From positions 1-64,000 of IMG/VR virus record IMGVR_UViG_3300037294_000399: DNA of 64,000 nucleotides; one strand, given 5' to 3'. How positions within the stretch are numbered: the stretch's first letter is position 1; every line of letters starts with the position of its first letter. This stretch comes from a virus. A model generated the notes under the pieces. That model searched no databases and was not told where the DNA came from. It saw only the letters and a program-made list of their open reading frames with translations. Both the position numbers and the translations under genes were made by a program. Below are positions 14,620 to 31,823 of the stretch, in pieces.

Positions 14620-15813
14620 ATGAAACAAATAACACACGAATACTTAGTAGAAAATGGTTTAATACTTTTTGAAACCATCGTTGGTTCACAAGCATACGGT
14701 ACACAAACTCCAACATCAGACATCGATAAAAAATTTGTCTATATATTACCTATGGATTCAATTTTAGGTACTGGTTATGTTGAACAAATAAATGTAGATA
14801 AAGATTACGTTGGTTGGGAGATTAGACGTTTCCTAGAACTTATGGGTTCAAACAATCCAACGGTTCTTGAACTTCTTAATAGCCCAGAAGATTGTATTGT
14901 ATCAAAACATGAGCTGTTTGACCTTATTCTTGCACACAAAGAAGATTTTATTACAAAAATTTGTAAAGATTCATTCGGTGGGTATGCAAGACAACAAATC
15001 AAGAAAGCCAAAGGATTGAATAAAAAACAAAACTGGGAAAAAGATAAAGTAACTCGAAAAGATTTACTAGATTTTTGTTACATTGTTGATGGTGAAAAAA
15101 CTATCCCATGGAAATCTTGGAATTGTGATAAATATGATGAAAAGTATATTGGTGCTGTTAATCTACCTAACGCTAGAGATGTATATGCATTATTTTATGA
15201 TAGTGTTGCAGAAATGTTACAGTCTGAAAAATATGCTGAAGATTTAAGACAAGTTTATAAAGAAACCCTTAAAAAAGCTGGTAAACCTATGGGTCACCGT
15301 TATAAAGGGTTGGTTAAAACAGGTGAAGGAGCAAACGCTGCTGAATCAAATCAATTACGTCTTTCATCAATACCAAAAGGTGAAAAAAGTATCTGTAATT
15401 TAGTTTACAATAAAGATGCTTACACCACACATTGTAAAGACTACAAAGAGTATCAAGAATGGTTAGAAAACCGTAACGAAACTCGTTATGTTGAAACACA
15501 GGAACATGGACAACGAATTGATGGTAAAAATATGATGCATTGTATTAGACTTATTCGTATGGCTCAAGAAATTGGTAGAGGGGAAGGCGTTCAAGTTCGT
15601 AGACCAGATGCTGAAGAACTATTATCGATTAGACGTGGTGAAGTTGATTTAGAACAACTTATTGATATGGCTGACAAAGCTATTGAAGAAATGGACTCAA
15701 TCTTTGATAATTCAGATTTACCAAGCAAACTTAATAGTGGCATCATCGATGCTCTGTTGGTAAATATTAGAAGAGACTTTTATAACTTGCCAATATCGGC
15801 AACTAATATTTAA
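14620..15813 (+). CDS. Pol-beta-superfamily nucleotidyltransferase (YcgL/Nuc-transf type)
   Basis: GSQAYG...SDID, NPTVLELL, KNMMHCIRL. Confidence 0.8.
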   Translation: MKQITHEYLVENGLILFETIVGSQAYGTQTPTSDIDKKFVYILPMDSILGTGYVEQINVDKDYVGWEIRRFLELMGSNNPTVLELLNSPEDCIVSKHELFDLILAHKEDFITKICKDSFGGYARQQIKKAKGLNKKQNWEKDKVTRKDLLDFCYIVDGEKTIPWKSWNCDKYDEKYIGAVNLPNARDVYALFYDSVAEMLQSEKYAEDLRQVYKETLKKAGKPMGHRYKGLVKTGEGANAAESNQLRLSSIPKGEKSICNLVYNKDAYTTHCKDYKEYQEWLENRNETRYVETQEHGQRIDGKNMMHCIRLIRMAQEIGRGEGVQVRRPDAEELLSIRRGEVDLEQLIDMADKAIEEMDSIFDNSDLPSKLNSGIIDALLVNIRRDFYNLPISATNI

Positions 15814-15817: not shown

Positions 15818-16318
15818 ATGAATATATTTGACGCACCAAAAGACTGTATCAGAACCAATAGTGGTTTATACGTCAATGTTTTCGAACCAACATCAGAAAT
15901 GATACGTGTAGAAGATATCGCTCACGCATTGGCTTCAATGCCAAGGTTCGGTGGTCACCTTAACAAACACTATTCAGTAGCACAACACAGTGTCAGATGT
16001 TGTGAAATGGCTGTGAGTTTAGAGGACAAAAAAGCGGCCCTTATGCACGATGCTAGTGAAGCGTACATGTTGGACATTCCAACACCAATAAAAGCTAAAC
16101 TACCAGATTATAAAATGTATGAAGCTAGACTTATGGGGTTCATTTCAAGACATTTTGGTTTTGAGTTTCCGTTGTCTGATACTGTACATACAATTGACCG
16201 TGATATGTTATTGCTTGAGTGGGAGAATCTGGTAGTAAACGAAAACGATGAGTTTGAGTGTTGGGACCATGCCACAGCCAAAGCTAGATTTATAGAACAA
16301 TTTAATAAATTGTTTTAA
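15818..16318 (+). CDS. HD phosphohydrolase (YfdR/5'-deoxynucleotidase-like)
   Basis: IAHALA..PRFGGH, YSVAQHS, LMHDASEAY. Confidence 0.85.
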   Translation: MNIFDAPKDCIRTNSGLYVNVFEPTSEMIRVEDIAHALASMPRFGGHLNKHYSVAQHSVRCCEMAVSLEDKKAALMHDASEAYMLDIPTPIKAKLPDYKMYEARLMGFISRHFGFEFPLSDTVHTIDRDMLLLEWENLVVNENDEFECWDHATAKARFIEQFNKLF

Positions 16319-16495
16319 TTAAAAAATGGGTTGTTCTTCAATAAGAAGCTGATACTTTTGTCAGCTTCTTTACAATCATCTATAAATGAAATAACTTGTT
16401 CATCAGTTAGTTCTTCACCATGAATGTTTCCTTCTAAAATTAAATACACATATCCCATAATCAAATATACTAATTTATCCAGGAACTGTCAAGTC

Positions 16496-17233
16496 TTAAA
16501 GCATAGAAATTGCTTTGTTGATATCCTTTAACATTTGAATACAACGATTAGTCAAATAATCAGTATTTTCATCATTCATATAAGCAGTAACGTTTATTGG
16601 TTTATTTGTAAATCTAATAAATTCGTTTTCATGTGACATCCTAGAAAGAACACTAAAATATTCGGATTTAAAAATAAATTCATCTGGGTTGGTGTTGTAG
16701 GCCAAAATAAAAGGAAGTCTTAAATCTTCACGTATAACATCATTTAATAATTTCATCAATCCATCTTCAGTGTCAATATAGTCAATTTTGGCAACAATTT
16801 CGTAAAAACTTTCATAACTACCAAAATTAGCTGCTGACTCATAAGCCATAGACCAACTTTGAACTAAACTATTCGCTTTATAAACATAACGATTACCCTT
16901 TTCAAGTTCAATGGCTTGCTTGTTTTTGATAAAATAAGACATTGGAATCATTGTTCCTCTATAAGTTGTAATATTTTCTGGGACCAATATGTCTGGGTAT
17001 TGATTCATACAACCTTTTAGGTTTGATAAAGCAGAAATAAATTCCTGTGTAGTTTCTTCACCATACATATTATCGGTAAAATCTTTTATTTGCTCTATAT
17101 AATCATTTTCAGTTGGCGTATTACGCTCAGCTCCACCAAATTGGTCACCAAATAATTCATGACCGAAATTCTTAACACAAGATGTTACTTCGTTTTCATT
17201 TACGATGGATTCATATAACTTATAGATTTTCAT
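16496..17233 (-). CDS. Possible R-S-E class ADP-ribosyltransferase
   Basis: TYRG ... QSWS ... ENE in the expected order. Confidence 0.45.
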   Translation of the reverse strand: MKIYKLYESIVNENEVTSCVKNFGHELFGDQFGGAERNTPTENDYIEQIKDFTDNMYGEETTQEFISALSNLKGCMNQYPDILVPENITTYRGTMIPMSYFIKNKQAIELEKGNRYVYKANSLVQSWSMAYESAANFGSYESFYEIVAKIDYIDTEDGLMKLLNDVIREDLRLPFILAYNTNPDEFIFKSEYFSVLSRMSHENEFIRFTNKPINVTAYMNDENTDYLTNRCIQMLKDINKAISML

Positions 17234-17302
17234 AGTGTTACAGTTTATTTACTATAAATATCGAAAAAACTTGTAAAAAAACTTGACAAATCAAAATAAA
17301 TG

Positions 17303-17342
17303 TAGTATCTTTGTGTAACTTTTAGAAATAGAGGTATATTTA
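17303..17342 (+). promoter_or_regulatory. tRNA-operon promoter cassette, copy 1
   Basis: tagtatctttgtgtaacttttagaaatagaggtatattta; TAnnTTTG plus TATTTAT motif; near-identical at 18284 and 31824. Confidence 0.8.
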
Positions 17343-17364
17343 TAGACAAATAAAAACAACAACA

Positions 17365-17442
17365 ATGAAAACTTTTAACAACGCAGTAGTCCTTTTAGTC
17401 TTATGTTTACTAGTAGTAGACAGGATGGGTTATGCATGTTAA
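17365..17442 (+). CDS. Attenuator leader peptide 1 (Val/Leu/Cys): MKTFNNAVVLLVLCLLVVDRMGYAC
   Basis: 11 consecutive V/L/C codons upstream of a terminator and Cys/Leu/Val/Leu tRNAs. Confidence 0.85.
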   Translation: MKTFNNAVVLLVLCLLVVDRMGYAC

Positions 17443-17469
17443 TTAAGTAGTCAAATACGATAACAACTG

Positions 17470-17500
17470 AAACCCATCTAAGCAATTAGGTGGGTTTTTT
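17470..17500 (+). terminator. Attenuator terminator 1
   Basis: aacccatctaa-GCAA-ttaggtgggtt + T run; alternative pairing with gatgggtt 17424-17431. Confidence 0.85.
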
Positions 17501-17507
17501 GCATTAT

Positions 17508-17582
17508 GCACGTGTGGTCGAGTGGTCAAAGGCAACGGATTGCAAATCCGTAAAACCGCTGGTTCGAATCCAGCCACGTGTT
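17508..17582 (+). tRNA. tRNA-Cys(GCA)
   Basis: Cloverleaf; anticodon arm acgga-ttGCAaa-tccgt. Confidence 0.92.
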
Positions 17583-17598
17583 CAAAATAGAAAATAAG

Positions 17599-17883
17599 AT
17601 GGATACAAATGAAGTAAAAAAAGACTTATATAAGTCAAAGAACATGGCTAAATTTAGTCATTATGTAAGTGGGAATTGATACTACACAGTTGAGTTAGCT
17701 ATCGGAACATATCAATTCCCGATATTAACGGTAGAAGAATCAGAATTATATGATTCTGAAGGTAGTGTTAAATTATCCTCAGATTTAGGAACAACAACCT
17801 TTGAGGTAGAAATGAAAGGGTTAGACCTTAACAGATGGATAACAAAAGCCATAGAAAATGAAACATTTATAAAGATAGGGTAA
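17599..17883 (+). pseudogene. Hypothetical gene with internal TGA at 17677
   Basis: Open frame on both sides of a single stop. Confidence 0.55.
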
Positions 17884-17895
17884 AACCTATCATAA

Positions 17896-17979
17896 GCGGA
17901 TATGGGGGAATTGGTAGACCCGCTGGTCTTAGAAACCAGTGCTGAAATAAGCGTGCGAGTTCGAGTCTCGCTATCCGTA
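17896..17979 (+). tRNA. tRNA-Leu(TAG)
   Basis: ctggt-ctTAGaa-accag, long variable arm. Confidence 0.93.
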
Positions 17980-17985
17980 CAACAT

Positions 17986-18063
17986 GCATCTGTAACTCAG
18001 TTGGTTTAGAGTGCTTCCTTTACACGGAAGAAGTCGGGGGTTCGAGTCCCTCCAGATGCACCA
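17986..18063 (+). tRNA. tRNA-Val(TAC)
   Basis: cttcc-ttTACac-ggaag, encoded CCA. Confidence 0.95.
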
Positions 18064-18064
18064 A

Positions 18065-18145
18065 AAGATAGTTACTGCAAACAAAAAGGTTAACAATTTA
18101 TTCGCAAAATAAATCTAAGTGGTTCAATCCCACAAAACTATCTTG
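18065..18145 (+). ncRNA. tRNA-fragment element (anticodon-like GCA arm plus T-arm in a closing stem)
   Basis: aagatagtt/aactatctt stem; atttat-tcGCAaa-ataaat; gtgg-ttcaatc-ccac. Confidence 0.55.
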
Positions 18146-18150
18146 AATTT

Positions 18151-18235
18151 GGCCGAGTGGTGGAACGGTATACACACTAGACTTAAAATCTAGCGGTCCG
18201 AAAGGGCCTTGCGGGTTCGAATCCCGCCTCGGCTA
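18151..18235 (+). tRNA. tRNA-Leu(TAA)
   Basis: ctaga-ctTAAaa-tctag, long variable arm. Confidence 0.93.
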
Positions 18236-18283
18236 CAATAAAATAAAAAAAACACAAAAAGACTTGCTTTTTTAAAATAAATG

Positions 18284-18323
18284 TAGTACCTTTGTGTAAC
18301 TTTTAGAAATAAGAGTATATTTA
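18284..18323 (+). promoter_or_regulatory. tRNA-operon promoter cassette, copy 2
   Basis: tagtacctttgtgtaacttttagaaataagagtatattta. Confidence 0.8.
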
Positions 18324-18364
18324 TTAAACAACAAAGGGGAAACCCACATTAAAAAATAGAAACA

Positions 18365-18454
18365 ATGAAAAAAAATAACAACATATTTGATTTTGCATTT
18401 TTTGCTGCCGAGGCTGATGAAAGCTTGGGAAGGTCATCTATTGTCATAAGTTAA
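18365..18454 (+). CDS. Attenuator leader peptide 2 (Phe/Asp/Ala/Glu): MKKNNNIFDFAFFAAEADESLGRSSIVIS
   Basis: 12 consecutive F/D/A/E codons upstream of a terminator and Phe/Glu/Asp/Ala tRNAs. Confidence 0.85.
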   Translation: MKKNNNIFDFAFFAAEADESLGRSSIVIS

Positions 18455-18477
18455 TGTAAATCATTAAACGAATCGAT

Positions 18478-18512
18478 AAAAGCTCTGACCTAAAAATCAG
18501 AGCTTTTTTTTT
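18478..18512 (+). terminator. Attenuator terminator 2
   Basis: aaaagctctga...tcagagctttt + T run; alternative pairing aggtca 18431-18436 with tgacct 18486-18491. Confidence 0.8.
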
Positions 18513-18596
18513 GTTTAAAAAATAAATAAAAAAAAAATGTAAAAAGTTTGGATGTTTAAAAAATATTTCATACCTTTGCAGAGTCAAAATAGACAA

Positions 18597-18623
18597 GGTA
18601 CCTTAGCTCAGTTGGTAGAGCAA
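18597..18623 (+). pseudogene. 5' half of interrupted tRNA-Phe
   Basis: ggtaccttagctcagttggtagagcaa, matching the intact tRNA-Phe at 21416. Confidence 0.8.
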
Positions 18624-18635
18624 GTTTAAAATAAT

Positions 18636-18709
18636 GGACTTCTGGTGTAAATGGTGTGTCATGCTAGTCTGAAGAACTAGAGGTTTCGGTTCGAGTCCGA
18701 GGGAGTCCA
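18636..18709 (+). tRNA. tRNA-Phe(GAA), divergent copy carried by the insertion
   Basis: ctagt-ctGAAga-actag; acceptor ggacttc/ggagtcc. Confidence 0.8.
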
Positions 18710-18789
18710 CAGATAACTTTTTGTAGAACATAATACAAAGTTTTTAGAGCTTTTAGATATAATTAGATATTTATATAAAAACGTAAATT

Positions 18790-19281
18790 ATGTTATTAGA
18801 AGAATTAGTAAAAAAGGGGTTGAATAATACTGAAATAGGTGAAATTTTAGGTATACATAGAACAACAGTTGCAAAGCAAATAAAAAAAGCTGGCATTGAA
18901 CGTGAAATATCAGATACTTGTGTTATTTGTAAAAGTAAAACAAAATCAACTAGAAAAAGATGTGATAGTTGTAACACTAAAATTAGAAGATACAGGGCAA
19001 AAAAAGCGAGTGTTCAATATTTGGGCGGTAAATGTAAAAAATGTGGTTGGAGTGGAAATTTAGCTGGTTATGATTTTCACCATCTAGACCCAGAAAAAAA
19101 AGATTTTAAACCAAGTGCTAATGAATTAGCAAATAAATCTTGGATTAAAGTAAAAGAGGAATTAGATAAATGTGAATTATTATGTGCAATATGTCATAGA
19201 TTAGAACATAATGATTATGAAAATAAAATATTTTTAAAAATAGCTGATTCAGAAAGTGATGATTTAATTTTTAAAAATTAA
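18790..19281 (+). CDS. HNH endonuclease with N-terminal HTH
   Basis: LGGKCKKCG...DFHHLDP...KCELLCAICH. Confidence 0.88.
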   Translation: MLLEELVKKGLNNTEIGEILGIHRTTVAKQIKKAGIEREISDTCVICKSKTKSTRKRCDSCNTKIRRYRAKKASVQYLGGKCKKCGWSGNLAGYDFHHLDPEKKDFKPSANELANKSWIKVKEELDKCELLCAICHRLEHNDYENKIFLKIADSESDDLIFKN

Positions 19282-19293
19282 AACAAGATGCGG

Positions 19294-19323
19294 GTGTCAC
19301 TGGTTCGAATCCAGTAGGTACCA
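19294..19323 (+). pseudogene. 3' half of interrupted tRNA-Phe
   Basis: gtgtcactggttcgaatccagtaggtacca; aggtacc pairs with ggtacct at 18597. Confidence 0.8.
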
Positions 19324-19407
19324 CAAAAGACAAATAGACCACACCTAGGGTTAGTGATTTAATTAAAGGGTCTCATTCAGTATACAAGTCTGAAATTTGT
19401 CTTTCAT

Positions 19408-19482
19408 GCTGCCATCGTCTAACGGTTAGGACGCTAGGTTTTCAACCTAGAAATCGGAGTTCGATTCTCCGTGGCAGCACCA
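19408..19482 (+). tRNA. tRNA-Glu(TTC)
   Basis: ctagg-ttTTCaa-cctag, CCA. Confidence 0.95.
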
Positions 19483-19576
19483 AGGTTCGATATATGTGTT
19501 GGTTTACGAGATTTGCACATAAAAAGGTTTAACAAAGCGAAAGCTACAGCTTTTTAAGAACCAAAATTATTACTAT

Positions 19577-19648
19577 GGCCCGTTCGTCTAACGGTTAGGA
19601 CGCTAGGTTTTCAACCTAGTAACAGGGGTTCGATTCCCCTACGGGCTA
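19577..19648 (+). tRNA. tRNA-Glu(TTC)
   Basis: ctagg-ttTTCaa-cctag. Confidence 0.93.
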
Positions 19649-19718
19649 CTATCAAGCAAGTGCTGCAACATTTGTAAGAGAAACCAATGAACAGATTGCA
19701 GTTTGGTAAGTTGGTTTT

Positions 19719-19792
19719 TGGGTGTTCGTCTAATTGGTTAAGACGCTGGGCGTTGAGGCTCGGAAATATGGGTTCAAGTCCCATACACTCTA
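19719..19792 (+). tRNA. Glu-like tRNA body with atypical 8-nt anticodon loop
   Basis: Glu-type D arm tcgtctaattggttaagacg; ctggg-cgttgagg-ctcgg; normal T arm. Confidence 0.55.
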
Positions 19793-19800
19793 CTAAAATA

Positions 19801-19875
19801 CGGATTAGAGGTCAAATGGTTAAGATGTCACCCTGTCACGGTGTTCGGAGCGGGTTCGACTCCCGTCTATTCCGC
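19801..19875 (+). tRNA. tRNA-Asp(GTC), divergent
   Basis: cacc-ctGTCac-ggtg; imperfect acceptor. Confidence 0.75.
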
Positions 19876-19932
19876 TAGCAGAAATGGTTGTTAACACCGC
19901 AAACTGAAAATGAAAGAAAGTTAACATAAACT

Positions 19933-20005
19933 GGGGATGTAGCTCAACTGGCTGAGCGTTACCTTTGCAAGGTAAAGGATGTGGGTTCGAATCTCATCAT
20001 CTCCA
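19933..20005 (+). tRNA. tRNA-Ala(TGC)
   Basis: ttacc-ttTGCaa-ggtaa; G3:U70. Confidence 0.93.
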
Positions 20006-20164
20006 CGAAACATCTAGTGAGGTAAGACTGGTAGGCTACTAATCCTAATGCTCGAAAGAGTACTGGAGAGGCTAACGAAAGAACCGAACGAGTAGTTAGT
20101 TGAAGGGATTTGCTTGAAAAATAAGTTTGGTGTAGAGCAAATTGTGTAATTAGATGTTTTAATT

Positions 20165-20241
20165 GGTCTGTTAGTAGAGTTGGTTACAATATCGCACTGT
20201 CACTGCGAAGGTCACGGGTTCGAATCCCGTACAGACCGCCA
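20165..20241 (+). tRNA. tRNA-Asp(GTC)
   Basis: tcgca-ctGTCac-tgcga, GCCA end. Confidence 0.95.
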
Positions 20242-20402
20242 GATAGCCCTCTGATGGTGCACCATCATGGAACGAAGACAGAGATTACAGATGTAGGTTG
20301 AAATAAAAAATACTTTCGGGTACACTTACATGTTGGCGTGGACGCTCTCCGAATCGTAGGTCGGCACAGTTGTAACTCTGGGGGTATTACAAAAGTTACA
20401 TT

Positions 20403-20476
20403 GGGGGATTAGCTCAGCTGGCTAGAGCACTTGCCTTGCACGCAAGGGGTCATCGGTTCGACTCCGATATCCTCCA
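20403..20476 (+). tRNA. tRNA-Ala(TGC)
   Basis: cttgc-ctTGCac-gcaag; G3:U70. Confidence 0.95.
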
Positions 20477-20479
20477 CAA

Positions 20480-20608
20480 CGATGTTGTTGGTGAGTATTC
20501 CGTTCGATTCGGATTTGGTCTTGGTGGCTGTGTGGTTCAAGTCCACGTTAAATAATAGGCAACACAATAGTAGGCATCCGCTCAAGGGTTCGACTCCCTT
20601 AACATCGA
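20480..20608 (+). ncRNA. tRNA-like RNA with three T-loop hairpins
   Basis: Acceptor-like cgatgtt/aacatcg; tccg-ttcgatt-cgga, gtgg-ttcaagt-ccac, aaggg-ttcgact-ccctt. Confidence 0.6.
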
Positions 20609-20613
20609 CAAAT

Positions 20614-20686
20614 TGGGGGATACTTTAATTGGTTAGAAGGCCACCTAGACGGGTGGTAGCGTAGGGTTCGAAACCCTCTCCCTCAA
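20614..20686 (+). tRNA. tRNA-like gene with non-canonical anticodon loop (undetermined)
   Basis: Acceptor tggggga/tccctca and T arm present; ccacc-tagacg-ggtgg loop is not 7 nt. Confidence 0.55.
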
Positions 20687-21114
20687 CTAAAAATAAAAAT
20701 ATTGTTTTACTACTTGATAGTGTAAAATAAATGTAGTACATTTGTATATGAAAAGAAAAATTTTACAATATTTAGCTGATTATATTATTAAACAACTAAA
20801 AACATCTATTGGTGATGATAGAGCATTTAATTTTTACTTAGAAATGGGTATGTGGTTAGATTTTTACGCTTTAAATAGTGATATTGAACTAAATTAAAAA
20901 AAAACAGAAAAATACTTGCAAGTTTAAAAATTAGTTAGTACCTTTGTAATATAAATCGAGAGGGTGTTTGAGAGTAGTAGCTATTAGGAAAGTTCCTCCT
21001 CTTTATCGAAAGATAAATGAAACTTTGTACTGGCGGTGGTATCAAACACAAGGTCGTAAATCTCTGGGGCAGATATGTCACGGAACAAGTCCTCGGTGTG
21101 TCACTGGGGCAAAT

Positions 21115-21191
21115 GGGAGAATAGTTCAGTTGGTAGATAGTCGCTGTCTTCGGAGGGCGAAAGGTCGTTGGTTCGAGTCCAGCTTCTTCCA
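21115..21191 (+). ncRNA. Anticodon-less tRNA mimic with Ala identity
   Basis: Acceptor gggagaa/ttcttcc (G3:U70, A73); D and T arms normal; anticodon arm capped by cUUCGg. Confidence 0.65.
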
Positions 21192-21415
21192 CAATTTAAG
21201 TAGCGTTGCATATAGACCTAGGAAGCTTATGTTGATTTCTATTTAGAGTTGCCGACAACTCAAGTTCGGGGGTTTACGGTTGTACCTTAACAACTAGGTT
21301 AGAGTTCGTTAACCTTCTTCCAAGAGCAAATGACGAATTGGTTTAGTAACATTTATCCACTTCTAGAGAAAAAAAGTTACTAGGGTAAACACTTGGAATA
21401 TGTTTACCCATTAAA

Positions 21416-21488
21416 GGTACCGTAGCTCAGTTGGTAGAGCAATGGACTGAAAATCCATGTGTCACTGGTTCGAATCCAGTCGGTACCA
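21416..21488 (+). tRNA. tRNA-Phe(GAA)
   Basis: atgga-ctGAAaa-tccat. Confidence 0.95.
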
Positions 21489-21496
21489 CAAACATT

Positions 21497-21620
21497 CGGA
21501 AGGTGGCCAAATTGGTAAAGGCGGCAGTAAGTAAAAAAGGTTAACTTGTTTAAAAGTTATGTTCAGCAGAAAAACTACATTGGGAACTGCTATTTGTTGG
21601 TTCGAGTCCAGCCCTTCCGA
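21497..21620 (+). tRNA. tRNA-Pro(TGG)-like gene with a 50-nt insertion in the anticodon arm
   Basis: Acceptor cggaagg/ccttccg; stem gcagt/actgc; removing 21529-21578 leaves loop atTGGga. Confidence 0.65.
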
Positions 21621-21635
21621 CTAAAATAAAAGAGA

Positions 21636-21989
21636 GTGAAGAATGTTTTAATTATTGTTTTATTGACTGTTACATTATTTAGTTGTAAACCAGAAACTAG
21701 TAACGTTGAGGTAAAAGAAGTTCCATTAGATTCAATTTATATTGAAGTGGAAGGAAAACCAGAAACTAGTAACGTTGAAGTAAAAGAAGTTAGGTATTGG
21801 TCTTCTTCTGAAACTAAATTACCAAGAGGTGTGGTTTATAGTTACGATTGTTCAAATAGAAATAAACCGAACCAAAAAATAAAAGATAATTATGTTACGA
21901 TTAAACGAACCAATGGTTATCTTACAATAGTTAAAGATATCGATGAAGATTTATTTTTAAATATTGAAATAGATGATGTAATTGATTAA
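21636..21989 (+). CDS. Lipoprotein with an internal 12-aa duplication
   Basis: Lipobox LFSC; KPETSNVEVKEV twice. Confidence 0.7.
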   Translation: MKNVLIIVLLTVTLFSCKPETSNVEVKEVPLDSIYIEVEGKPETSNVEVKEVRYWSSSETKLPRGVVYSYDCSNRNKPNQKIKDNYVTIKRTNGYLTIVKDIDEDLFLNIEIDDVID

Positions 21990-22180
21990 CAGAAGAGTGA
22001 GCAGCTATAGCCAAGTTGGAACCAGAACCAGCGTTTAGGTCAAAAATACTGGGCTTGCGACTTCTAAATAAAGTCAGAGTGCCCTCAACACTATAATAAA
22101 AGGGGTTTGATAAACCATGTGAGAAATTGCATGAGTTATTACTAGACATTGAAAGCTTATTTCAGCAACAAAAAATCTAT

Positions 22181-22260
22181 AGCCTGTTAAGCTCGTGATA
22201 TGGGTTCGAATCCCATACTGTCCGATATTACTGGGCGGTTAGCTTAATGGTTAGAGCACG
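22181..22260 (+). tRNA. Circularly permuted tRNA-Asn(GTT)
   Basis: 3' part (anticodon loop ctGTTaa, T arm, actgtcc) at 22181-22225 precedes 5' part (gggcggt, D arm, cg) at 22232-22260; joining gives the stem cgagc/gctcg. Confidence 0.75.
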
Positions 22261-22291
22261 AAAAGAAAAAAGTTAAGCTTGTTGTCTAAAT

Positions 22292-22409
22292 ATGAGGGTG
22301 GCTTATTGGAAGAGCACTCCCCCTAAATACGTGTGTAAGGTTCGATTCCTTTTTGGTTTGGAAGCATGGCGTATCGGGAGTTGCGTGGGTTCGAATCCCA
22401 CCCCTTGTA
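22292..22409 (+). ncRNA. tRNA-like RNA with a structured insertion replacing the anticodon loop
   Basis: Acceptor atgaggg/cccttgt; stem ctccc/gggag encloses about 54 nt containing an extra T-loop hairpin aagg-ttcgatt-cctt. Confidence 0.55.
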
Positions 22410-22726
22410 CTAGAACAAACTCAAGTAGTTTAGAGGTGGCTCCCTTTCCCACATTTGGGATATGTAGAAAAAGAGCTGTGGCTGACCACGGGCATCTAAT
22501 TGGGTTAAATACTCAATGATACAGGGGGCGAAGTTAGACGAAAGGTTTCTAGAATCGAGGTATGGGTATTCCCTTGAGTCCCTGTTCTTCTAGTTTTTTG
22601 TTTGTTTTAGTAAAAACAAACTGGTGGACAGTCAGATTGTTAATTCCAATCGACCCAAAAAAAATGACGTTATCATTTGGTAGTGTCATTTTTTATTTGT
22701 ACCTTTGTAATCTAAAAATAAAAGAA

Positions 22727-23200
22727 ATGACATTAAATTATCAATTAGGATTGTATGTTGGTGAATATATAGTAGCATTGCGTTTGCCAACGTTAAGTAC
22801 TGACATGTTAAAAACTAGAACAATCATTGATGTGTCACCAGAAGAAACAGCTGAGTGGGAAGTGTTGGATGCCCAATATGGTCCAATATATATTAGCGAT
22901 AAAGACCCAGATAAAGAAGCTAAAGAAGAAGCTAGAACTAGGATTTTTTATGAAAATCGTAAATGGTATCATAAGTTAGAAGAAAAATATCTACCAGAAA
23001 CTATAAAAGTACAAGTTCCTAGAGTTGTACCAACTAACATGAAGGAATTTACCAAAGGAATTGAGGATACTTTATGGGATAGTGATTTATCACATTATAG
23101 AATTAATGAAGGTTATTTCGAGCAAACATCTAAGTGTGCATGGTGTTCTTATATTATTTTAACAAGACACATAGAAAAAATTCCAGAAAAATTTGCATAA
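22727..23200 (+). CDS. Hypothetical protein
   Basis: ATG downstream of TACCTTTG promoter. Confidence 0.7.
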   Translation: MTLNYQLGLYVGEYIVALRLPTLSTDMLKTRTIIDVSPEETAEWEVLDAQYGPIYISDKDPDKEAKEEARTRIFYENRKWYHKLEEKYLPETIKVQVPRVVPTNMKEFTKGIEDTLWDSDLSHYRINEGYFEQTSKCAWCSYIILTRHIEKIPEKFA

Positions 23201-23259
23201 TTTAAATATTATTCATACCTTTGTACTCAACAAGTAAAAAAAACTTAAAAAAATAAAAA

Positions 23260-23976
23260 ATGGGATTAAAAGATTTATTTATCGTTAGTGATGAAAAACC
23301 TATCGATAAACCAGTACAAGAACCTGTGAAACAATCTGCTCCAAGCACGACAAAGTTTCCTAGTTCTACACCTAAAACGGAAGAAACGACTTCAAATCCG
23401 TTTAGTTCATTCGGTTTTGGTAGTTCACCAACACCTACTTATCAAGCTGCAACTGTAAGCAATGAAGTATTAGCTAAAACCTTAGAAATGTATGAAGCTG
23501 GTTTTGATTCCCTTAACCAACCAGGATACGACTTCTATGAGTTTTTCAAAACTGTAATGGCTGGTGGTGCTGACAACCCAGCAATCTACGGTATGGCTTT
23601 CGGTATGGGTAGTGCAATGGATAAAACTATTACCAAAGACAAATTATTGATGCAGTCTGAATTTTATATTACTGAAATAAACAAAGTTTACAATGACTAT
23701 GTTGCTAAAGGTAATGGTAAAAGACAAGAAGTTATCAACCAAAAGAATCATGAAAACGAATCATTATTAGGTGAATTGAATTTAATGAGACAACAATTAG
23801 AACAACTTCAAGTTCAAATTTCTGACCGTGAAAACAAACTATCTGTAATTGATAGCAAATATGGTCCAATCTTAAATGAAGTTGAAACTAAAATTACCGC
23901 TAATGATTTAGCAAAACAAAAGATAGTTAGTTCTATCGAACAAGTTAAAAACGGAATTATTAATAATTTAAAATAA
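23260..23976 (+). CDS. Coiled-coil protein (transporter-associated operon)
   Basis: LNQPGYDFYEF motif, C-terminal heptads. Confidence 0.75.
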   Translation: MGLKDLFIVSDEKPIDKPVQEPVKQSAPSTTKFPSSTPKTEETTSNPFSSFGFGSSPTPTYQAATVSNEVLAKTLEMYEAGFDSLNQPGYDFYEFFKTVMAGGADNPAIYGMAFGMGSAMDKTITKDKLLMQSEFYITEINKVYNDYVAKGNGKRQEVINQKNHENESLLGELNLMRQQLEQLQVQISDRENKLSVIDSKYGPILNEVETKITANDLAKQKIVSSIEQVKNGIINNLK

Positions 23977-23987
23977 AAAAAAGAGAT

Positions 23988-25118
23988 ATGCAAACTCAAA
24001 CTCAAACAAGGACATCTACTTTAAATGCAAATTTATCGGAGTTGCCAATTTTAAAACACTTTAACCAAAACGAAATCTCAACCAAAGTTGATACGTTTAG
24101 AAAAGGTGAGAAAAACATGTTCTGGTTCTTTAAATTAGCTGCACTTATTGGTGTTGGTTATTTAACTTGGACATATGTGTTACCGCCAGTATTCCAAGCA
24201 ATTGGACAAATGTTAGCAATTGCGGCTACCGCAGTAATGATTGTTGCGGGTGTTATTATGGCCCCAGTAATTGTTAAAGGTATTCGTTTACTTACTAGAG
24301 CGATTCACAAATCACTTATTAAGTATGACCCATTTGCTCAGTTAGAAATTGAAAGACAAAAAATGCTTGTGAATCAAACAACATTCAGAGTTGCTAAAGG
24401 GAACATTGTTCAATTAAAACAAGAAATGGAAATTGAAGCTGATAGGTCACAAAAAGAAGCTGAAAGTGGTCAAACAAGAGTAATCGCTTTGCAAGGTAAA
24501 GCTGAGAAGTTAAAATTTTCCATGGATGAAATGATTAAATCACAAGGTGTTGCTGCTAAAGGTGAAGATGAGTATGTTAACATGGCTGCTGAATTACAAA
24601 AAGTACTTGCAGAAGCACAACGTGTTGCTAACAAATACAACCAATCAAAAAACTTCGTTCAAAAGTACGGTACTCGTGCTAATGTAATGAAAAAAATGGG
24701 TCAAAAATTAACCCTTGTTGAAACTGCGATGGATATTAAAATCCAAGACTTTGATGCAACTATTGATATGTTGAAAAAAGACTACGAGTTCGGTCAAAAA
24801 TCTAATGCTGCAACAACTGCCGCTAAGTCTGCAATGGGCTTCACAAAAGGCTGGGAGTTTGATTATGCCTTGGATGTTGTTACATCTACGATTGCTGCTG
24901 ATATCGCAATCACGGCTGGTAACTTGAAAGATATTGAAAGTATTACAAGCAACTACACGTTAGATTCTGACGAGTTGTATGCTAACTTGAATGCAGTTGC
25001 TGATAAAATTAAAATTGGTACTGATATCATTCCAGATGCTAGTCAGTATTCAAACCCAGAGTACACTTTGTCATCAAGTGACAAATTAAAATCTGGTGGA
25101 TTTGGTGACATGTTCTAA
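23988..25118 (+). CDS. Membrane-anchored coiled-coil protein (PspA-like architecture)
   Basis: Two TM helices followed by long coiled coil. Confidence 0.7.
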   Translation: MQTQTQTRTSTLNANLSELPILKHFNQNEISTKVDTFRKGEKNMFWFFKLAALIGVGYLTWTYVLPPVFQAIGQMLAIAATAVMIVAGVIMAPVIVKGIRLLTRAIHKSLIKYDPFAQLEIERQKMLVNQTTFRVAKGNIVQLKQEMEIEADRSQKEAESGQTRVIALQGKAEKLKFSMDEMIKSQGVAAKGEDEYVNMAAELQKVLAEAQRVANKYNQSKNFVQKYGTRANVMKKMGQKLTLVETAMDIKIQDFDATIDMLKKDYEFGQKSNAATTAAKSAMGFTKGWEFDYALDVVTSTIAADIAITAGNLKDIESITSNYTLDSDELYANLNAVADKIKIGTDIIPDASQYSNPEYTLSSSDKLKSGGFGDMF

Positions 25119-25384
25119 GAAATATTAGATAAAAAACTGTTCGAGTAGCTATTGCGTCTTATCAACCGATTGTAAAGTAGTGGACAAAATATATACGGGA
25201 TTGCTGAGCCTAAATGAGTAAGAAGGAAGTCATAAGAGTTTTAAACCGATAAGGGTAGTTTCTCCGATGGCGAAAAAAAAAAAAGAAAAAAAAAATGACA
25301 AAATGTTTGGTAGATTAAAAAAGAATATGTACCTTTGTCATGTTAAATTAAATAAAGTAAATTTTATAAACTAAAAATAAACAA

Positions 25385-27199
25385 ATGGGAAGAATTTTAA
25401 AACAAGCTAAATTAACAACTTTAGCTGAAAGTGTAATCGTAGCGTTAGGTGTAATCTTAATCTGTGGAATCGTTTATATGGTATCTCCTGGGTTACGAGT
25501 TGAAGTTTCAAAACAATTAACTGGTCTAGAATTAAATAGTGACGAGTTAAACAATGTGACGAGTGGTGCTAAATTACCGTTACCATCTACACAACCATCT
25601 ACCGCTGTTGCGAATCAAGGACTTATTCGTATTGCAGAATATGCTTGGAATGGTAACTCTGGTATGATTGTAGCAAATGGTGGACCACGTACAACACAAG
25701 GGTCTCTTATGGAAGCTGCTGGTGTTAACCTTGAAATCGTAAGACAAGATATGGTTGGTGGGTTACGTGATATGCAAATAAAATTCGTTGAAGAATATGA
25801 TAAAGGTTTTGCTTATCCAAAATCAGACAAATCAGCTTGGGGTGTTAGTATAATGGGTGACGGTGTTCCGTTCTATATTACTACAACACAAAAAGCGTTA
25901 GATGAAAAGTTTGGTAAAAACAAATATCATGTACAAGTTATCGGTGCTTACGGATTATCTTATGGTGAGGATAAATTAATTGGTCCAAAAATTTGGAAAG
26001 AAAACCCACAATCAATGAGAGGTGCTGTAGTTTCTTCTGTAATTGGTGATGGTGACTGGGTTGTTGCGTGTAACTATGCGTTTGCTAATAAAGTACCAGT
26101 AAATCCAGACCCAACAACTTACGATGCAGATGCCTTGAATTTTTTCCCATCACAAGACGATGACTACATCAACTCAGTTAAAGAATTAATCAAATCTCAA
26201 AAAACAGGGTTTATAGTTCCTTTGAAAGAAGTTAAAGATGGTAAATTAACTGGTAAGACAGTAAATAGAAAAATTGATGGTGCAACTACTTGGACTCCTG
26301 GTGATAAGATGGCGTTTGATGCGTTGACTGGGTTTACCGATGTAGTTTCAACTAAAGAGTTCGTTAACCAAATGGCTACTACTTTAGTAGTGATTAAAGA
26401 GTGGGCTTTGCAACATGAAAAAGAAGTTGTGTCTATCTTAAAACAAACTTATACTGCAACTAATCAAATTAAGTTATATGATGAATGGGCTGTAAAAGCT
26501 TCTGAAGCCGTAGCTAAAACTTATGACTTTGAAACACCAGCTTATTGGTATAAAATGTTTAAAGGTCAAAAAGGTACTAAAGATGGTTTAGATTATAATA
26601 TTGGTGGTACACGTGTCTTCAATTATGCTGATGCTATGCAATATTACGGAATTACTGATGGTAACAACCGATACAAAGCAGTTTACAATCAAATCTCTAC
26701 TTATTTGACTGACTTGAACCCAATGGGTTTCAATGAATCAAACCCTAATGGTGTAGTAGCTTATGAAGATGCAGTTAACTTATATTTCTTAAAAAGTGTT
26801 ACCGATGTTGCGGTAGGTAAAGCTGAAAAAATTAACTACGATGGTAATAAGACTAAAGTATTAGCTAGTGGTCAATGGAACATAAACTTTGCAACTGCAA
26901 GTACGTCAATTCAAGGTTCGGATAAAGACTTAGAGGCCATATACAACTTATTAATGCAAGCTGAACAAGCCAAATTGAAAATTGTTGGTCATACCGATAA
27001 CGTAGGTGATTCTGGTTCTAATCTAACATTATCAAAAGGTCGTGCTAATTCAGTTGTTGAGTGCTTAATTAATAGAGGTATTTCTAAAAATCGTTTCCAA
27101 TTGGTTGATGGTAAAGGTGATGCTTCTCCAATTGCGACTAATGCAACTCCAGCTGGTAAAGCTAAGAACAGACGTGTGGAAATCACATTGTTAGACTAA
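25385..27199 (+). CDS. ABC substrate-binding protein (SsuA/TauA-like) with C-terminal OmpA domain
   Basis: N-terminal TM; GHTDNVG...NLTLSKGRA...NRRVEI. Confidence 0.85.
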   Translation: MGRILKQAKLTTLAESVIVALGVILICGIVYMVSPGLRVEVSKQLTGLELNSDELNNVTSGAKLPLPSTQPSTAVANQGLIRIAEYAWNGNSGMIVANGGPRTTQGSLMEAAGVNLEIVRQDMVGGLRDMQIKFVEEYDKGFAYPKSDKSAWGVSIMGDGVPFYITTTQKALDEKFGKNKYHVQVIGAYGLSYGEDKLIGPKIWKENPQSMRGAVVSSVIGDGDWVVACNYAFANKVPVNPDPTTYDADALNFFPSQDDDYINSVKELIKSQKTGFIVPLKEVKDGKLTGKTVNRKIDGATTWTPGDKMAFDALTGFTDVVSTKEFVNQMATTLVVIKEWALQHEKEVVSILKQTYTATNQIKLYDEWAVKASEAVAKTYDFETPAYWYKMFKGQKGTKDGLDYNIGGTRVFNYADAMQYYGITDGNNRYKAVYNQISTYLTDLNPMGFNESNPNGVVAYEDAVNLYFLKSVTDVAVGKAEKINYDGNKTKVLASGQWNINFATASTSIQGSDKDLEAIYNLLMQAEQAKLKIVGHTDNVGDSGSNLTLSKGRANSVVECLINRGISKNRFQLVDGKGDASPIATNATPAGKAKNRRVEITLLD

Positions 27200-27312
27200 G
27201 AATAAATATAAATTAAAAATCCTCAGAGAAATCTGGGGATTTTTTTTGTAAAAAGATTTGGAAGTTCGAATTAAATTTCGTACCTTTGTCTTATAAATTT
27301 TAAAACAATAAA

Positions 27313-28083
27313 ATGAAAAGATTATTTAAACCGTTTGAGCGACTTAAAGGTTCTAGTACAACAACAATACTAGTTTCTTGGTTAGTTATCTTATTTGTGT
27401 TTTGGGGTGTAAATAGCTTAGGAACAACAAACATGTTCCCAACACCAAAACAAGTACTACATGGATTACAAAATTTATGGTGGGAAGGTCTCATTGTTCA
27501 TTTGGGTAGTTCAATTGCGTTGTGTGGTCAAGCAGTATTTATTTCAATAGTGATTTCATTACTATTTGCTTATACGTCAGCAATTCCATTTTTTAAACCA
27601 GTAGGTACCTTTATATCTAAGCTTAGATATTTGCCATTGACGGGTATTGCGTTTTATTTAGCTATAATAATTCAAGATGCTAGAAATCTTCAAGTATGGG
27701 TTCTTGTAGTGTTTATGACAACATTCTTAACTACTGGTCTTATGCAAATGATTAAAGATATACCAGAAGAAGAATTTGACCACGCTAGAACACTTGGGTG
27801 TAACAGATGGGAAACACTTTGGGAAGTTGTAATTAAAGGTCGTATTGACTACGTATTTGAGTTAGTAAGGCAAAACTTAGCTATTGTGTGGATGATGCTT
27901 GTAACTGTTGAATCTATTCTTGTAGCTGCTGGTGGGTTAGGGTTCCTAATTAAAAACAATGATAAGTTAGGTGATGCTGGTAAAGTAATTGCTTTGCAAA
28001 TAATCATAGTAGTGGTAGGGTTGTCTTTGGACTTCATCATCACAAAATTGAGAAAATTAATCTTTAGATATTCAAACTATTAA
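27313..28083 (+). CDS. ABC transporter permease (SsuC/TauC-like)
   Basis: FPTP, RYLP, EAA-like loop ARTLG, GLGFLI. Confidence 0.88.
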   Translation: MKRLFKPFERLKGSSTTTILVSWLVILFVFWGVNSLGTTNMFPTPKQVLHGLQNLWWEGLIVHLGSSIALCGQAVFISIVISLLFAYTSAIPFFKPVGTFISKLRYLPLTGIAFYLAIIIQDARNLQVWVLVVFMTTFLTTGLMQMIKDIPEEEFDHARTLGCNRWETLWEVVIKGRIDYVFELVRQNLAIVWMMLVTVESILVAAGGLGFLIKNNDKLGDAGKVIALQIIIVVVGLSLDFIITKLRKLIFRYSNY

Positions 28084-28086
28084 TAT

Positions 28087-28908: not shown

Positions 28909-29025
28909 TGAATAAAGAATAAAAAACCATATATTACATCTAAAAAACACATTGAATATATTTATAGTATGTGTTAATGTTAAATTGAGTACCAAAACAT
29001 AATATTAACCTTAAACAAAGATAAA

Positions 29026-29190: not shown

Positions 29191-29333
29191 TTATGAGTGG
29201 GGCATTAATTTGCCCCTCTTATACTAGGAAAAATAAGACCCATCATGTGTTTAAAAGCACTAGGTCACGACTAAATATAATACTATGGACAGTGAGAGGA
29301 ACAGTAACGAGAAAAGTGATGGCGACAGTCTGC

Positions 29334-30875: not shown

Positions 30876-30926
30876 TCTTTATATTTATATTAAAATAAGA
30901 TAGTGTAAATTTAATTATGGATAAAA

Positions 30927-31815: not shown

Positions 31816-31823
31816 AATAAAAG

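What the first reader, a model, noticed from the sequence alone, without database searches (positions are those of the whole stretch)
21497..21620. tRNA-Pro with a 50-nt insert that is the unpermuted form of the element flanking tRNA-Asn
The insert aagtaaaaaaggt-taacttg-tttaa-aagtta-tgttcagcag-aaaaactac matches the Asn flanks read circularly: aaaagaaaaaagt-taagcttg ... aagctta-tttcagcaac-aaaaaatctat. The shared plan is an A-run, a stem, TTCAGCA, an A-run and CTAY. It is too small for a group I or II intron and has no BHB motif. Inference: a new tiny tRNA intron, or a mobile RNA domain grafted into the anticodon arm.
Basis: partly seen in the sequence, partly recalled or inferred. Interest (0 to 1): 0.75.

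Follow-up and report, generated by a model that had tools for sequence, protein, structure and literature searches.

The report
Phage tRNA carrying Ro60-like docking handle
A proline tRNA gene of an uncultured giant lake phage is interrupted beside its anticodon by a small folded RNA "handle" that most likely docks a phage relative of the RNA-surveillance protein Ro60 and is probably not a classical intron, a tRNA-plus-handle layout I did not find in the papers searched.

Summary
Window 21497-21620 is a well-formed tRNA-Pro only if 50-52 nt next to the anticodon are removed, and 16 distinct homologues in other phage contigs keep both the cloverleaf and the insert.

The insert has a 6-7 bp stem, then single-stranded UUCAGCA(A/G), then A-rich linkers. 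It is a loop-closed copy of a module that, opened at the stem's far end, brackets three other cargoes: the permuted tRNA-Asn (22143-22288), a mini cargo (18065-18145), and anticodon-arm hairpins or other tRNAs in dozens of related jumbo-phage contigs. The stem covaries freely.

Loop-closed copies interrupt at least four tRNA bodies, always on the 5' side of the anticodon arm (26/27 to 32/33).

Complete relatives encode a DUF2828/DUF7788 protein. Its predicted fold matches Ro60 best, and its gene is directly flanked by handle RNAs. No BHB motif, EndA, RtcB, classical TROVE gene or Rfam family fits.

My reading is a Y-RNA-like docking handle grafted into a tRNA (about 0.55). A true excised intron stays open (about 0.25).

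Earlier reports of this scan reached the same handle/DUF2828 reading on other phage DNA. I re-tested its key points here. The 96-kb fragment that holds the window (27% complete) shows no DUF2828 gene.

The parts
21497..21527 (+). 5' part of tRNA-Pro: acceptor 5' strand (C1), D arm, 5' strand of the anticodon stem (GGCAG)
   Evidence: ARAGORN with introns. Pairs across the insert covary in 16 homologues.
21528..21579 (+). Insert, a loop-closed handle module. A-rich linker J2 21529-21541; stem 5' strand 21542-21547; loop 21548-21553; stem 3' strand 21554-21559; motif UUCAGCAG 21562-21569; A-rich linker J1 21570-21579. The first 5 nt and last 6 nt can pair (helix P0).
   Evidence: Sequence. The hairpin appears in the minimum-energy and centroid folds. 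Stem pairs 51:64 and 52:63 of alignment A2 change on both sides. P0 compensations were read off.
21580..21620 (+). 3' part of tRNA-Pro: anticodon-loop nucleotides UUGGGAA (U33, GGG), 3' strand of the anticodon stem, variable loop, T arm, acceptor 3' strand (G72), A73
   Evidence: Among homologues only position 34 of the anticodon varies (GGG, UGG, AGG, CGG).
22143..22288 (+). Permuted tRNA-Asn(GUU) inside the open form of the same handle. Outer helix 22143-22148 with 22283-22288; handle stem 22153-22159 with 22274-22280; motif UUCAGCAA 22161-22168; anticodon hairpin 22181-22195; T arm 22200-22216; acceptor 3' strand 22217-22223; linker 22224-22232; acceptor 5' strand 22233-22239; D arm to 22260; A-rich linker 22261-22273.
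   Evidence: Sequence. The fold shows both closing helices, z = -2.7. It is kept in L120 and L122-L125 with compensatory changes and swapped tRNA bodies. Rfam YrlA matches only the tRNA-like part, 23.7 bits against a cut-off of 69.
18066..18143 (+). Third, open copy of the handle. Stem 18066-18072 with 18137-18143; motif UACUGCAA 18073-18080. It encloses only an anticodon-arm-like hairpin (loop UCGCAAA) and a T arm.
   Evidence: Homologues in G001, G002 and L120 keep the handle and T arm but carry other anticodon-like loops.

Best explanation
The insert is a docking handle for a protein. It is not an intron of any known class. It has a short stem followed at once by single-stranded U(U/A)C(A/U)GCA(A/G) and A-rich linkers, and it is one conserved module.

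Where its ends are free (open form), it closes small RNAs whose cargo is an anticodon-arm hairpin, an anticodon arm plus T arm, or a whole circularly permuted tRNA such as the Asn gene at 22143-22288. Where it is capped by a loop (closed form), it sits inside an ordinary tRNA, always on the 5' side of the anticodon arm, as in tRNA-Pro at 21497-21620.

Both gene layouts give the same folded object: an L-shaped tRNA body, anticodon nucleotides exposed next to the handle, and the handle projecting from the anticodon stem. If RNase P opens the acceptor loop of the permuted form, as happens in Mycobacterium smegmatis YrlA, the two products become equivalent with no ligation.

I infer that the handle binds the phage's Ro60-like protein (DUF2828/DUF7788, a helical ring domain plus vWA). 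The particle would then work like a Ro60/Y-RNA particle, with the handle holding the protein and the tRNA-shaped cargo engaging tRNA-recognising factors. Candidate factors are ProRS, RNase P, the CCA enzyme, the phage RNA ligase and RlaP, or host anticodon nucleases.

Shown here:
- the module, its covarying stem and its four layouts;
- the selection on the tRNA body;
- the Ro60-like fold of DUF2828;
- the gene-RNA adjacency and co-occurrence.

Inferred:
- physical binding of handle and protein;
- that the handle stays in the mature RNA;
- the downstream role.
For: 1. One module, four layouts.
2. The stem covaries. Copies found with a pattern that does not constrain the stem pair 7/7 in 12 of 17 cases, with 12 different strands. 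In the Pro type, two stem pairs change on both sides.
3. In the cargo-poor copies the handle encloses only a 4-bp hairpin with loop CUUUUAA. These were found in 23 viral contigs. Excision there would leave nothing usable.
4. G001 (100% complete) and G002 encode DUF2828+DUF7788. The AlphaFold model matches Ro60/TROVE first: Foldseek ranks 1-12, E from 6.5e-9 to 1.7e-5; VIA Z 16.0, 14.7 and 14.3 against at most 11 for plain vWA domains.
5. A handle RNA starts just after the DUF2828 stop codon in G001 and G002 and in G016 and G017. Two or three lie just upstream of the gene in G013, G015, G039 and G041.
6. Co-occurrence: 6 of 7 handle-bearing records at least 50% complete have DUF2828. Only 2 of 22 control phage records do, and both of those carry handle RNAs beside the gene.
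7. Handle-bearing tRNAs always sit beside ordinary genes for the same anticodon family: Pro(UGG) x2 in the window, Asn x2-3 and Asp x2 in G001 and G002.
8. RNA-library contigs bridge the insert unspliced, and no joint skipping it was listed (weak evidence).
9. The architecture equals that of Dictyostelium Class I RNAs, a short end-joining stem plus a conserved motif next to its 5' strand (PMC7919456). Rfam's Class I model hits a sibling handle RNA at 24.7 bits.
10. YrlA sets a precedent for a permuted tRNA mimic on a Ro60-binding stem that is cut by RNase P and given CCA (PMC4201824).
Against: - No DUF2828 gene lies in the 96-kb fragment that holds the window. The fragment is only 27% complete, so this is open.
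- Binding is inferred from neighbourhood only.
- Deleting the module restores a canonical 5-bp anticodon stem and a 7-nt loop with U33 in several independent tRNA bodies and at several positions. That is what an intron would require.
- The Pro type keeps bacterial tRNA-Pro identity marks (C1:G72 or U1:A72, A73, G35, G36) while position 34 varies freely. This points to charging or decoding.
- The AlphaFold model is only moderate (pLDDT 67.8, pTM 0.48; TM-scores to Ro60 0.31-0.37).
- The Class I and YrlA models score below their Rfam cut-offs.
Confidence: 0.55

Rival explanations
1. It is a true intervening sequence. The module is recognised by an endonuclease, either phage-encoded, host-encoded, or acting within the Ro60-like particle. 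It is cut out on both sides, and the tRNA halves are sealed by the phage Rnl2-type RNA ligase (with RlaP and phosphoesterases) or by host RtcB. This would yield a decoding tRNA-Pro(GGG). The permuted Asn would be circularised the same way and then opened by RNase P and RNase Z.
For: - Precise removal gives canonical anticodon arms at 26/27, 29/30, 31/32 and in the permuted Asn.
- An insert inside the anticodon stem is hard to reconcile with ribosomal decoding.
- Anticodon-stem pairs that span the insert covary.
- Only wobble position 34 varies in the Pro type.
- The phage encodes an RNA ligase (phrog_548, 8465-9334, with its motif-I piece in 7917-8288), an RlaP nucleotidyltransferase and an HD phosphohydrolase near the tRNA cluster.
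- The break at 28/29 or 29/30 would leave a nick in a duplex, which is the preferred Rnl2 substrate (my own knowledge).
Against: - No spliced form was seen; contigs from RNA libraries keep the insert.
- There is no BHB motif, no EndA and no RtcB in G000-G004.
- No handle-free allele of the Pro-type or Asp-type tRNA exists in IMG/VR.
- The same handle closes RNAs with no tRNA to splice.
- There is no conserved sequence at the would-be splice sites.
- Ordinary copies of the same isoacceptor families are present.
- Some copies would give 8-9-nt loops (L247, L306).
Confidence: 0.25
2. It is an anticodon-loop decoy or sensor. The particle displays anticodon loops of tRNAs that host anticodon nucleases attack (Lys, Asn, Asp, Glu, Tyr, Pro, Met, Cys). 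It would soak up or report the nuclease, or bring cut tRNA to the phage ligase. This refines the main reading rather than replacing it.
For: - Every cargo, however reduced, keeps a 7-nt anticodon-type loop at a roughly fixed distance (about 20 nt) from the handle stem.
- The CUUUUAA hairpin is invariant in 16 distinct copies while the handle stem varies.
- Position 34, at or next to the usual cleavage site, is the most variable base.
- RNA-repair genes lie nearby.
- Jumbo phages are known to stock tRNAs and RNA repair against such attacks (PMC7824862).
Against: It is purely inferential. No nuclease, cleavage product or binding was examined. The Asp/Glu and Pro bodies keep full acceptor and T arms, which a loop decoy would not need.
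Confidence: 0.1
3. It is a processing spacer. The module is a cis signal for host RNases that separates neighbouring tRNAs in the long operon transcripts. It has no partner protein of its own, and the interrupted tRNAs are by-products of recombination.
For: - Cargo-poor copies exactly fill tRNA-tRNA spacers.
- The chimera L299 joins the 5' half of a Pro-type tRNA to the 3' half of another tRNA through the module. This shows recombination within it.
Against: - It does not explain the invariant motif.
- It does not explain the linkage to DUF2828.
- It does not explain the long-term conservation and covariation of interrupted tRNAs.
Confidence: 0.05
4. It is a dead tRNA gene, disrupted by a small DNA insertion and decaying.
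For: Redundant normal tRNA-Pro genes exist. The region is full of endonuclease-driven rearrangements.
Against: - 16 diverged homologues keep all four tRNA helices, with 14 compensated pairs.
- The insert has no inverted terminal repeats or target duplication.
- The module is conserved across contigs from many lakes.
Confidence: 0.03

Closest known systems
YrlA-type bacterial and phage Y RNAs with Ro60/Rsr (Rfam RF02553; Chen et al. 2014, PMC4201824; phage phiLo Ro60 with Yrl1/Yrl2, PMC12135203)
   Same: It is a small RNA with a protein-binding closing stem plus a tRNA-shaped domain. The permuted Asn has the same T arm, closed acceptor, D arm order. The partner protein predicted here has the Ro60 fold. 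The RNA genes lie next to the protein gene. The setting is RNA repair.
   Different: The handle sequence and stems differ: YrlA scores 23.7-41.2 bits against a cut-off of 69, with non-canonical stems. The protein is DUF2828/DUF7788, not Pfam TROVE. The cargo keeps a real anticodon loop. In the Pro gene the layout is inside-out, with free acceptor ends and a loop-capped handle.
Class I RNAs of dictyostelid amoebae (Rfam RF01414; Kjellin et al. 2021, PMC7919456)
   Same: A short stem joins the 5' and 3' ends, with structure but not sequence kept. A conserved single-stranded motif ending in CAGCAA lies directly 3' of the stem's 5' strand. The rest is variable, and the 3' end reads CUG.
   Different: Those are eukaryotic RNAs of 42-65 nt, reported as unique to Dictyostelia, with no tRNA cargo. 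The model score here is below the cut-off (24.7 against 41.5, on a sibling RNA). The insert in tRNA-Pro is the circularly permuted form.
Protein-spliced tRNA introns and permuted tRNA genes of Archaea and the red alga Cyanidioschyzon merolae (BHB motif, EndA/Sen endonuclease, RtcB)
   Same: Short inserts sit at non-canonical positions of the anticodon arm. Permuted genes have a leader and trailer that reconstitute the intron structure. Removal restores a canonical tRNA.
   Different: There is no bulge-helix-bulge. No EndA or RtcB was found. The setting is a bacteriophage. The same element also occurs without any tRNA. No spliced product is known.
Group I introns in bacterial and phage tRNA anticodon loops
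   Same: An intervening sequence lies in the anticodon region of a tRNA gene of a bacterial system.
   Different: 50 nt is about a quarter of the smallest group I intron. There is no P1-P9 core and no Rfam intron match.

Membership tests
BHB-type (archaeal/eukaryal) tRNA intron | Two 3-nt bulges separated by a 4-bp helix at the exon-intron borders | tested here: not met
   Inspection, and the fold. The 5' border abuts the anticodon stem with 0-1 free nt. The 3' border precedes a 6-7-nt bulge. The short helix P0 has 5 bp and a 1-nt bulge.
BHB-type (archaeal/eukaryal) tRNA intron | EndA/Sen-type splicing endonuclease (PF01974) available | tested here: not met
   No match in G000-G004, including the 100% complete G001. 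The host genome is unknown.
BHB-type (archaeal/eukaryal) tRNA intron | The insert is absent from the mature tRNA | not testable with these tools
   Only contigs from RNA libraries were available. They keep the insert at low depth. Raw small-RNA reads are needed.
Group I intron | Catalytic core of about 200 nt or more, recognisable by Rfam | tested here: not met
   The insert is 50-52 nt. There was no intron family in cmscan of 16000-35000.
YrlA Y RNA (RF02553) | Reaches the Rfam gathering score of 69 bits | tested here: not met
   23.7 bits for the window's permuted Asn and 41.2 bits for its G001 homologue. The match rests on the tRNA-like part. There is no hit on 21497-21620.
YrlA Y RNA (RF02553) | Encoded beside a TROVE (PF05731) Ro60 gene | tested here: not met
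   No PF05731 match in G000-G004. A DUF2828 protein with a Ro60-like fold is present instead.
Dictyostelium Class I RNA (RF01414) | Short end-joining stem plus a conserved motif (U3, C6, C9, A10, A11 of CCUUACAGCAA) directly 3' of its 5' strand | tested here: met
   The open copies (22153-22168 with 22274-22280; 18066-18080 with 18137-18143) show stem + U(U/A)C(A/U)GCAA. The motif rule comes from PMC7919456. In the Pro insert the same parts are present in permuted order.
Dictyostelium Class I RNA (RF01414) | Reaches the Rfam gathering score of 41.5 bits | tested here: not met
   The best score is 24.7 bits, E = 0.012, on a sibling handle RNA in L270. There is no hit in the window.
CAGCAA-handle RNAs paired with a DUF2828 Ro60-like protein (unpublished; noted repeatedly by this scan) | Covarying stem with the motif immediately 3' of its 5' strand | tested here: met
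CAGCAA-handle RNAs paired with a DUF2828 Ro60-like protein (unpublished; noted repeatedly by this scan) | DUF2828 gene in the same genome, next to handle RNAs | tested here: inconclusive
   This is met in the relatives G001, G002, G013, G015, G016, G017, G039 and G041. It was not found in the window's own 96-kb fragment, which is 27% complete.
CAGCAA-handle RNAs paired with a DUF2828 Ro60-like protein (unpublished; noted repeatedly by this scan) | The protein has the Ro60 fold (helical ring + vWA) | tested here: met
   Foldseek top 12 hits are all Ro60/TROVE. VIA Z 14-16 over 209-326 residues. The model is of moderate confidence.
CAGCAA-handle RNAs paired with a DUF2828 Ro60-like protein (unpublished; noted repeatedly by this scan) | The handle physically binds the protein | not testable with these tools
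   No protein-RNA complex tool was available. This needs EMSA or co-purification.

The most novel reading that the evidence does not exclude
The handle-bearing tRNAs are matured at their acceptor ends, charged (here by ProRS) and held by the Ro60-like particle. This would make a phage-built tRNA surveillance and counter-defence machine. Alternatively, the particle itself directs a protein-guided cut-and-seal of tRNA. That would be the first non-ribozyme tRNA splicing pathway in a bacterial system, and it would explain permuted tRNA genes in phages.
Probability: 0.2. Interest if true: 0.9.

Novelty: new variant of a known kind. Interest (0 to 1): 0.68.

Why it matters
This gives a likely RNA partner, and a testable function, to DUF2828. 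That is a very large protein family of unknown function, with more than 8000 relatives at E <= 1e-10 in one capped search. It extends the Ro60/Y-RNA principle to a new protein branch and a new RNA handle. It links that handle to the unexplained Class I RNAs of social amoebae. It also shows a wiring not described in the papers I could search: real-looking tRNAs, permuted or not, carrying a protein-docking arm in the anticodon stem. For annotation, tRNA finders miss these genes or give them wrong anticodons. If the arm proves to be excised, bacterial viruses would have a protein-dependent tRNA splicing route.

Tried and rejected
- A loose pattern scan (TTCAGCA-NN-AAAAA-N-CTA) of IMG/VR gave 118 loci, all chance hits in coding DNA.
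- Two scans of 185,579 prokaryote species genomes for the commonest closed handle and for the CUUUUAA-cargo copy gave nothing real. The single hit, in Flavobacterium aerium, lies inside an ORF, has no closing stem and has no tRNA nearby. The module therefore looks phage-borne, but other stem variants were not searched.
- I looked for handle-free alleles of the Pro-type and Asp-type tRNAs. None was found.
- Metatranscriptome contigs (X19-X22) listed no joint that skips the insert and no back-joint for the Asn. Contigs cannot show absence of a spliced form, and mature tRNAs are poorly assembled.
- Hammerhead, hairpin, twister, pistol and HDV-like cores were compared from memory only, and nothing matched. 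No Rfam ribozyme hit lies on the module.
- A K-turn, a T-loop, or pairing of UUCAGCAA with tRNA or rRNA segments: no consistent partner was found.
- ORFs 22562-25118 next to the RNA cluster have no Pfam or PHROG match, so no candidate nuclease emerged.
- The minimum-energy fold of the interrupted tRNA is not better than that of shuffles (z = -0.7). In the window's copy GCAG of the motif can pair with the 3' strand of the anticodon stem. Other copies, with GCAA or GCAU, lack this, so I treat it as incidental.

Full report
**Setting**

The window is the first 64 kb of a 96-kb IMG/VR fragment with 31% G+C, estimated 27% complete. It has T4-like genes and Bacteroidota-type promoters, and it carries large tRNA clusters: 21 genes by ARAGORN, more by Rfam. 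Near the clusters lie an RlaP nucleotidyltransferase (14620-15813) and an HD phosphohydrolase (15818-16318). An Rnl2-type RNA ligase also lies there, apparently split between 7917-8288 and 8465-9334.

**The observation**

ARAGORN in intron mode finds a 73-nt tRNA-Pro at 21497-21620 once 52 nt are removed after the 5' strand of the anticodon stem. The border can slide by 1-2 nt.

The insert reads as follows:
- A-rich linker, 21529-21541
- stem TAACTT/AAGTTA, 21542-21547 with 21554-21559
- UUCAGCAG, 21562-21569
- A-rich linker ending CUACA

At 22143-22288 the gene order is:
- closing strands and UUCAGCAA
- anticodon hairpin (CUGUUAA), T arm, acceptor 3' strand
- an 8-9-nt linker
- acceptor 5' strand, D arm, A-run
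- closing strands

This is a circularly permuted tRNA-Asn whose leader and trailer form the same module, opened at the stem's far end.

Taken alone, the sequence similarity between the two copies is no better than that of other A-rich windows of this genome. The case rests on structure, context and comparison.

**Comparative data**

Neighbouring ORFs led to related contigs. These include a complete 362-kb genome (G001) and a 233-kb one (G002).

The permuted Asn is kept in five relatives. The handle stem changes in a compensated way (AAGCUUA/UAAGCUU, AAGAUUA/UAAUCUU, AAGAUUG/CAAUCUU). A second outer helix also covaries. The tRNA body is swapped between close relatives while the anticodon hairpin and handle stay.

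Pattern scans of IMG/VR and JGI metagenomes found the closed form in many contigs.

Sixteen distinct Pro-type genes align into a cloverleaf plus handle stem. In that alignment 96.1% of cells are paired and 14 pairs change on both sides. No shuffle out of 500 does as well, and slid controls pair at 31-53%.

These genes keep C1:G72 (or U1:A72), A73, U33, G35 and G36. Position 34 takes all four bases.

The first five and last six nucleotides of the insert can pair, with compensated differences between subgroups (read off).

The closed handle also interrupts other tRNAs:
- an Asp(GUC)/Glu(UUC, CUC) body at 29/30
- a Tyr(GUA)-type body at 31/32
- another Tyr body at 26/27

It is always on the 5' side of the anticodon arm. 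One chimera (L299) joins halves of two different tRNAs through the module.

I found no handle-free allele of the Pro or Asp type. Neither of the two handle variants searched has a true copy in 185,579 prokaryote species genomes.

**The module also stands without a tRNA**

Open copies enclose an anticodon-like hairpin plus a T arm. The window has one at 18066-18143, and relatives carry other loops at the same place.

Other open copies enclose only a 4-bp hairpin with loop CUUUUAA. These exactly fill a tRNA-tRNA spacer and occur in 23 viral contigs.

In those copies, which were found without constraining the stem, the stem pairs 7/7 in 12 of 17 cases with 12 different strands. A further helix forms between the linkers.

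Splicing would make no sense for these copies. A shared protein- or factor-binding handle explains all four layouts.

**The partner**

Notes from earlier reports of this scan said that stem-plus-CAGCAA handles travel with DUF2828, a Ro60-like protein. I tested this here.

- PF11443 is absent from the window's fragment. It is present in G001 and G002, together with DUF7788.
- The AlphaFold model (pLDDT 67.8) has a helical N-terminal half and an alpha/beta C-terminal half.
- Foldseek's first twelve PDB matches are all Ro60/TROVE proteins, E from 6.5e-9 to 1.7e-5 over the full length. They include phage phiLo Ro60, Xenopus and human Ro60, and Deinococcus Rsr.
- VIA-align gives Z 16.0, 14.7 and 14.3 for these, above plain vWA domains.
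- In G001 and G002 a handle RNA with about 170 nt of cargo begins just after the DUF2828 stop codon and ends at a terminator. G016 and G017 show the same.
- In G013, G015, G039 and G041 two or three handle RNAs lie just upstream of the gene.
- Six of seven handle-bearing records at least 50% complete have the gene. Two of 22 control phage records have it, and both of those turned out to carry handle RNAs beside it.
- Classical TROVE, RtcB and EndA are absent from G000-G004.

**Relation to known RNAs**

Rfam has no family for the module.

YrlA matches the permuted Asn only through its tRNA-like part, at 23.7 and 41.2 bits against a cut-off of 69. YrlA does share the T arm, closed acceptor, D arm layout. 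In M. smegmatis it is cut by RNase P and receives CCA (PMC4201824).

The handle has the build of Dictyostelium Class I RNAs: a short end-joining stem plus a motif ending in CAGCAA beside its 5' strand (PMC7919456). Rfam's Class I model hits a sibling handle RNA at 24.7 bits, below its cut-off.

I found no paper on DUF2828 and RNA, or on permuted or handle-bearing tRNA genes in bacteriophages.

**Expression**

In four metatranscriptome assemblies, contigs bridge the Pro insert unspliced, at a depth like that of neighbouring ORFs. Contigs over the permuted Asn region have 10-50 times that depth. No joint skipping the insert was listed. Contigs cannot exclude a spliced form.

**Verdict**

The insert is a loop-closed copy of a conserved handle. 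Most likely it docks a phage Ro60-like protein. That makes this gene an inside-out, Y-RNA-like tRNA chimera, and the permuted Asn its YrlA-like counterpart.

Excision remains a live alternative, for three reasons:
- removal always restores a canonical anticodon arm;
- an arm inside the anticodon stem should block decoding;
- the phage carries an RNA ligase.

The two ideas could be combined if the particle assists cutting and sealing.

Noticed in passing
window 22292-22410: A second interrupted tRNA lies directly after the permuted Asn. Rfam tRNA scores 43.4 bits over 118 nt, and ARAGORN calls Leu(UAA) with a 47-nt insert at 37/38. The insert contains a T-arm-like hairpin (AAGGUUCGAUUCCUU), not the CAGCAA handle. 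It is conserved in L122-L124.
   Followed up: partly
window 22428-22500 (and on to about 22560): This stretch is almost invariant in four metatranscriptome assemblies, and its contigs have the highest depth of the region (130-670 against about 4 for ORFs). No Rfam hit. It may be another abundant small RNA.
   Followed up: no
L259 2197-2268 (-), in G001: An HDV-like ribozyme match (RF02682, 32.3 bits, cut-off 44) lies 3 nt downstream of a tRNA. The layout is that of ribozymes that trim tRNA 3' ends in gut phages.
   Followed up: no
window 7917-8288 and 8465-9334: The Rnl2-type RNA ligase seems split. Motif-I residues (profile positions 6-33) lie in a 123-aa ORF, and the rest (positions 36-170; phrog_548) lies in the next ORF 176 nt downstream.
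   Followed up: partly
window 18597-19323: The two halves of a tRNA-Phe closely matching the one at 21416 are separated by about 670 bp. That stretch holds a different tRNA-Phe and a 163-aa ORF with HTH and Cys/His motifs.
   Followed up: no
L299 (JGI contig Ga0315284_10318100), around 100-126: A chimeric gene: the 5' half of a Pro-type tRNA, the handle, then the 3' half of a different tRNA whose acceptor strand does not match. It is direct evidence for recombination within the handle, and a possible route to permuted genes.
   Followed up: partly
G001 about 64480-64660 (-) and G002 about 227860-228010 (-): A large handle RNA with about 170 nt of cargo lies between the DUF2828 stop codon and an intrinsic terminator. 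Its motif reads UGCAGCAA or UUCUGCAA, and it has an outer 8-bp helix. The cargo shows no evident tRNA shape.
   Followed up: partly
window 19719-19793, 20614-20687; genome 70114-70212: tRNA-shaped genes with anticodon loops of unusual size (ARAGORN '???' with 2- or 4-base anticodons). The 'agac' one is conserved in G001, G002 and L120.
   Followed up: no
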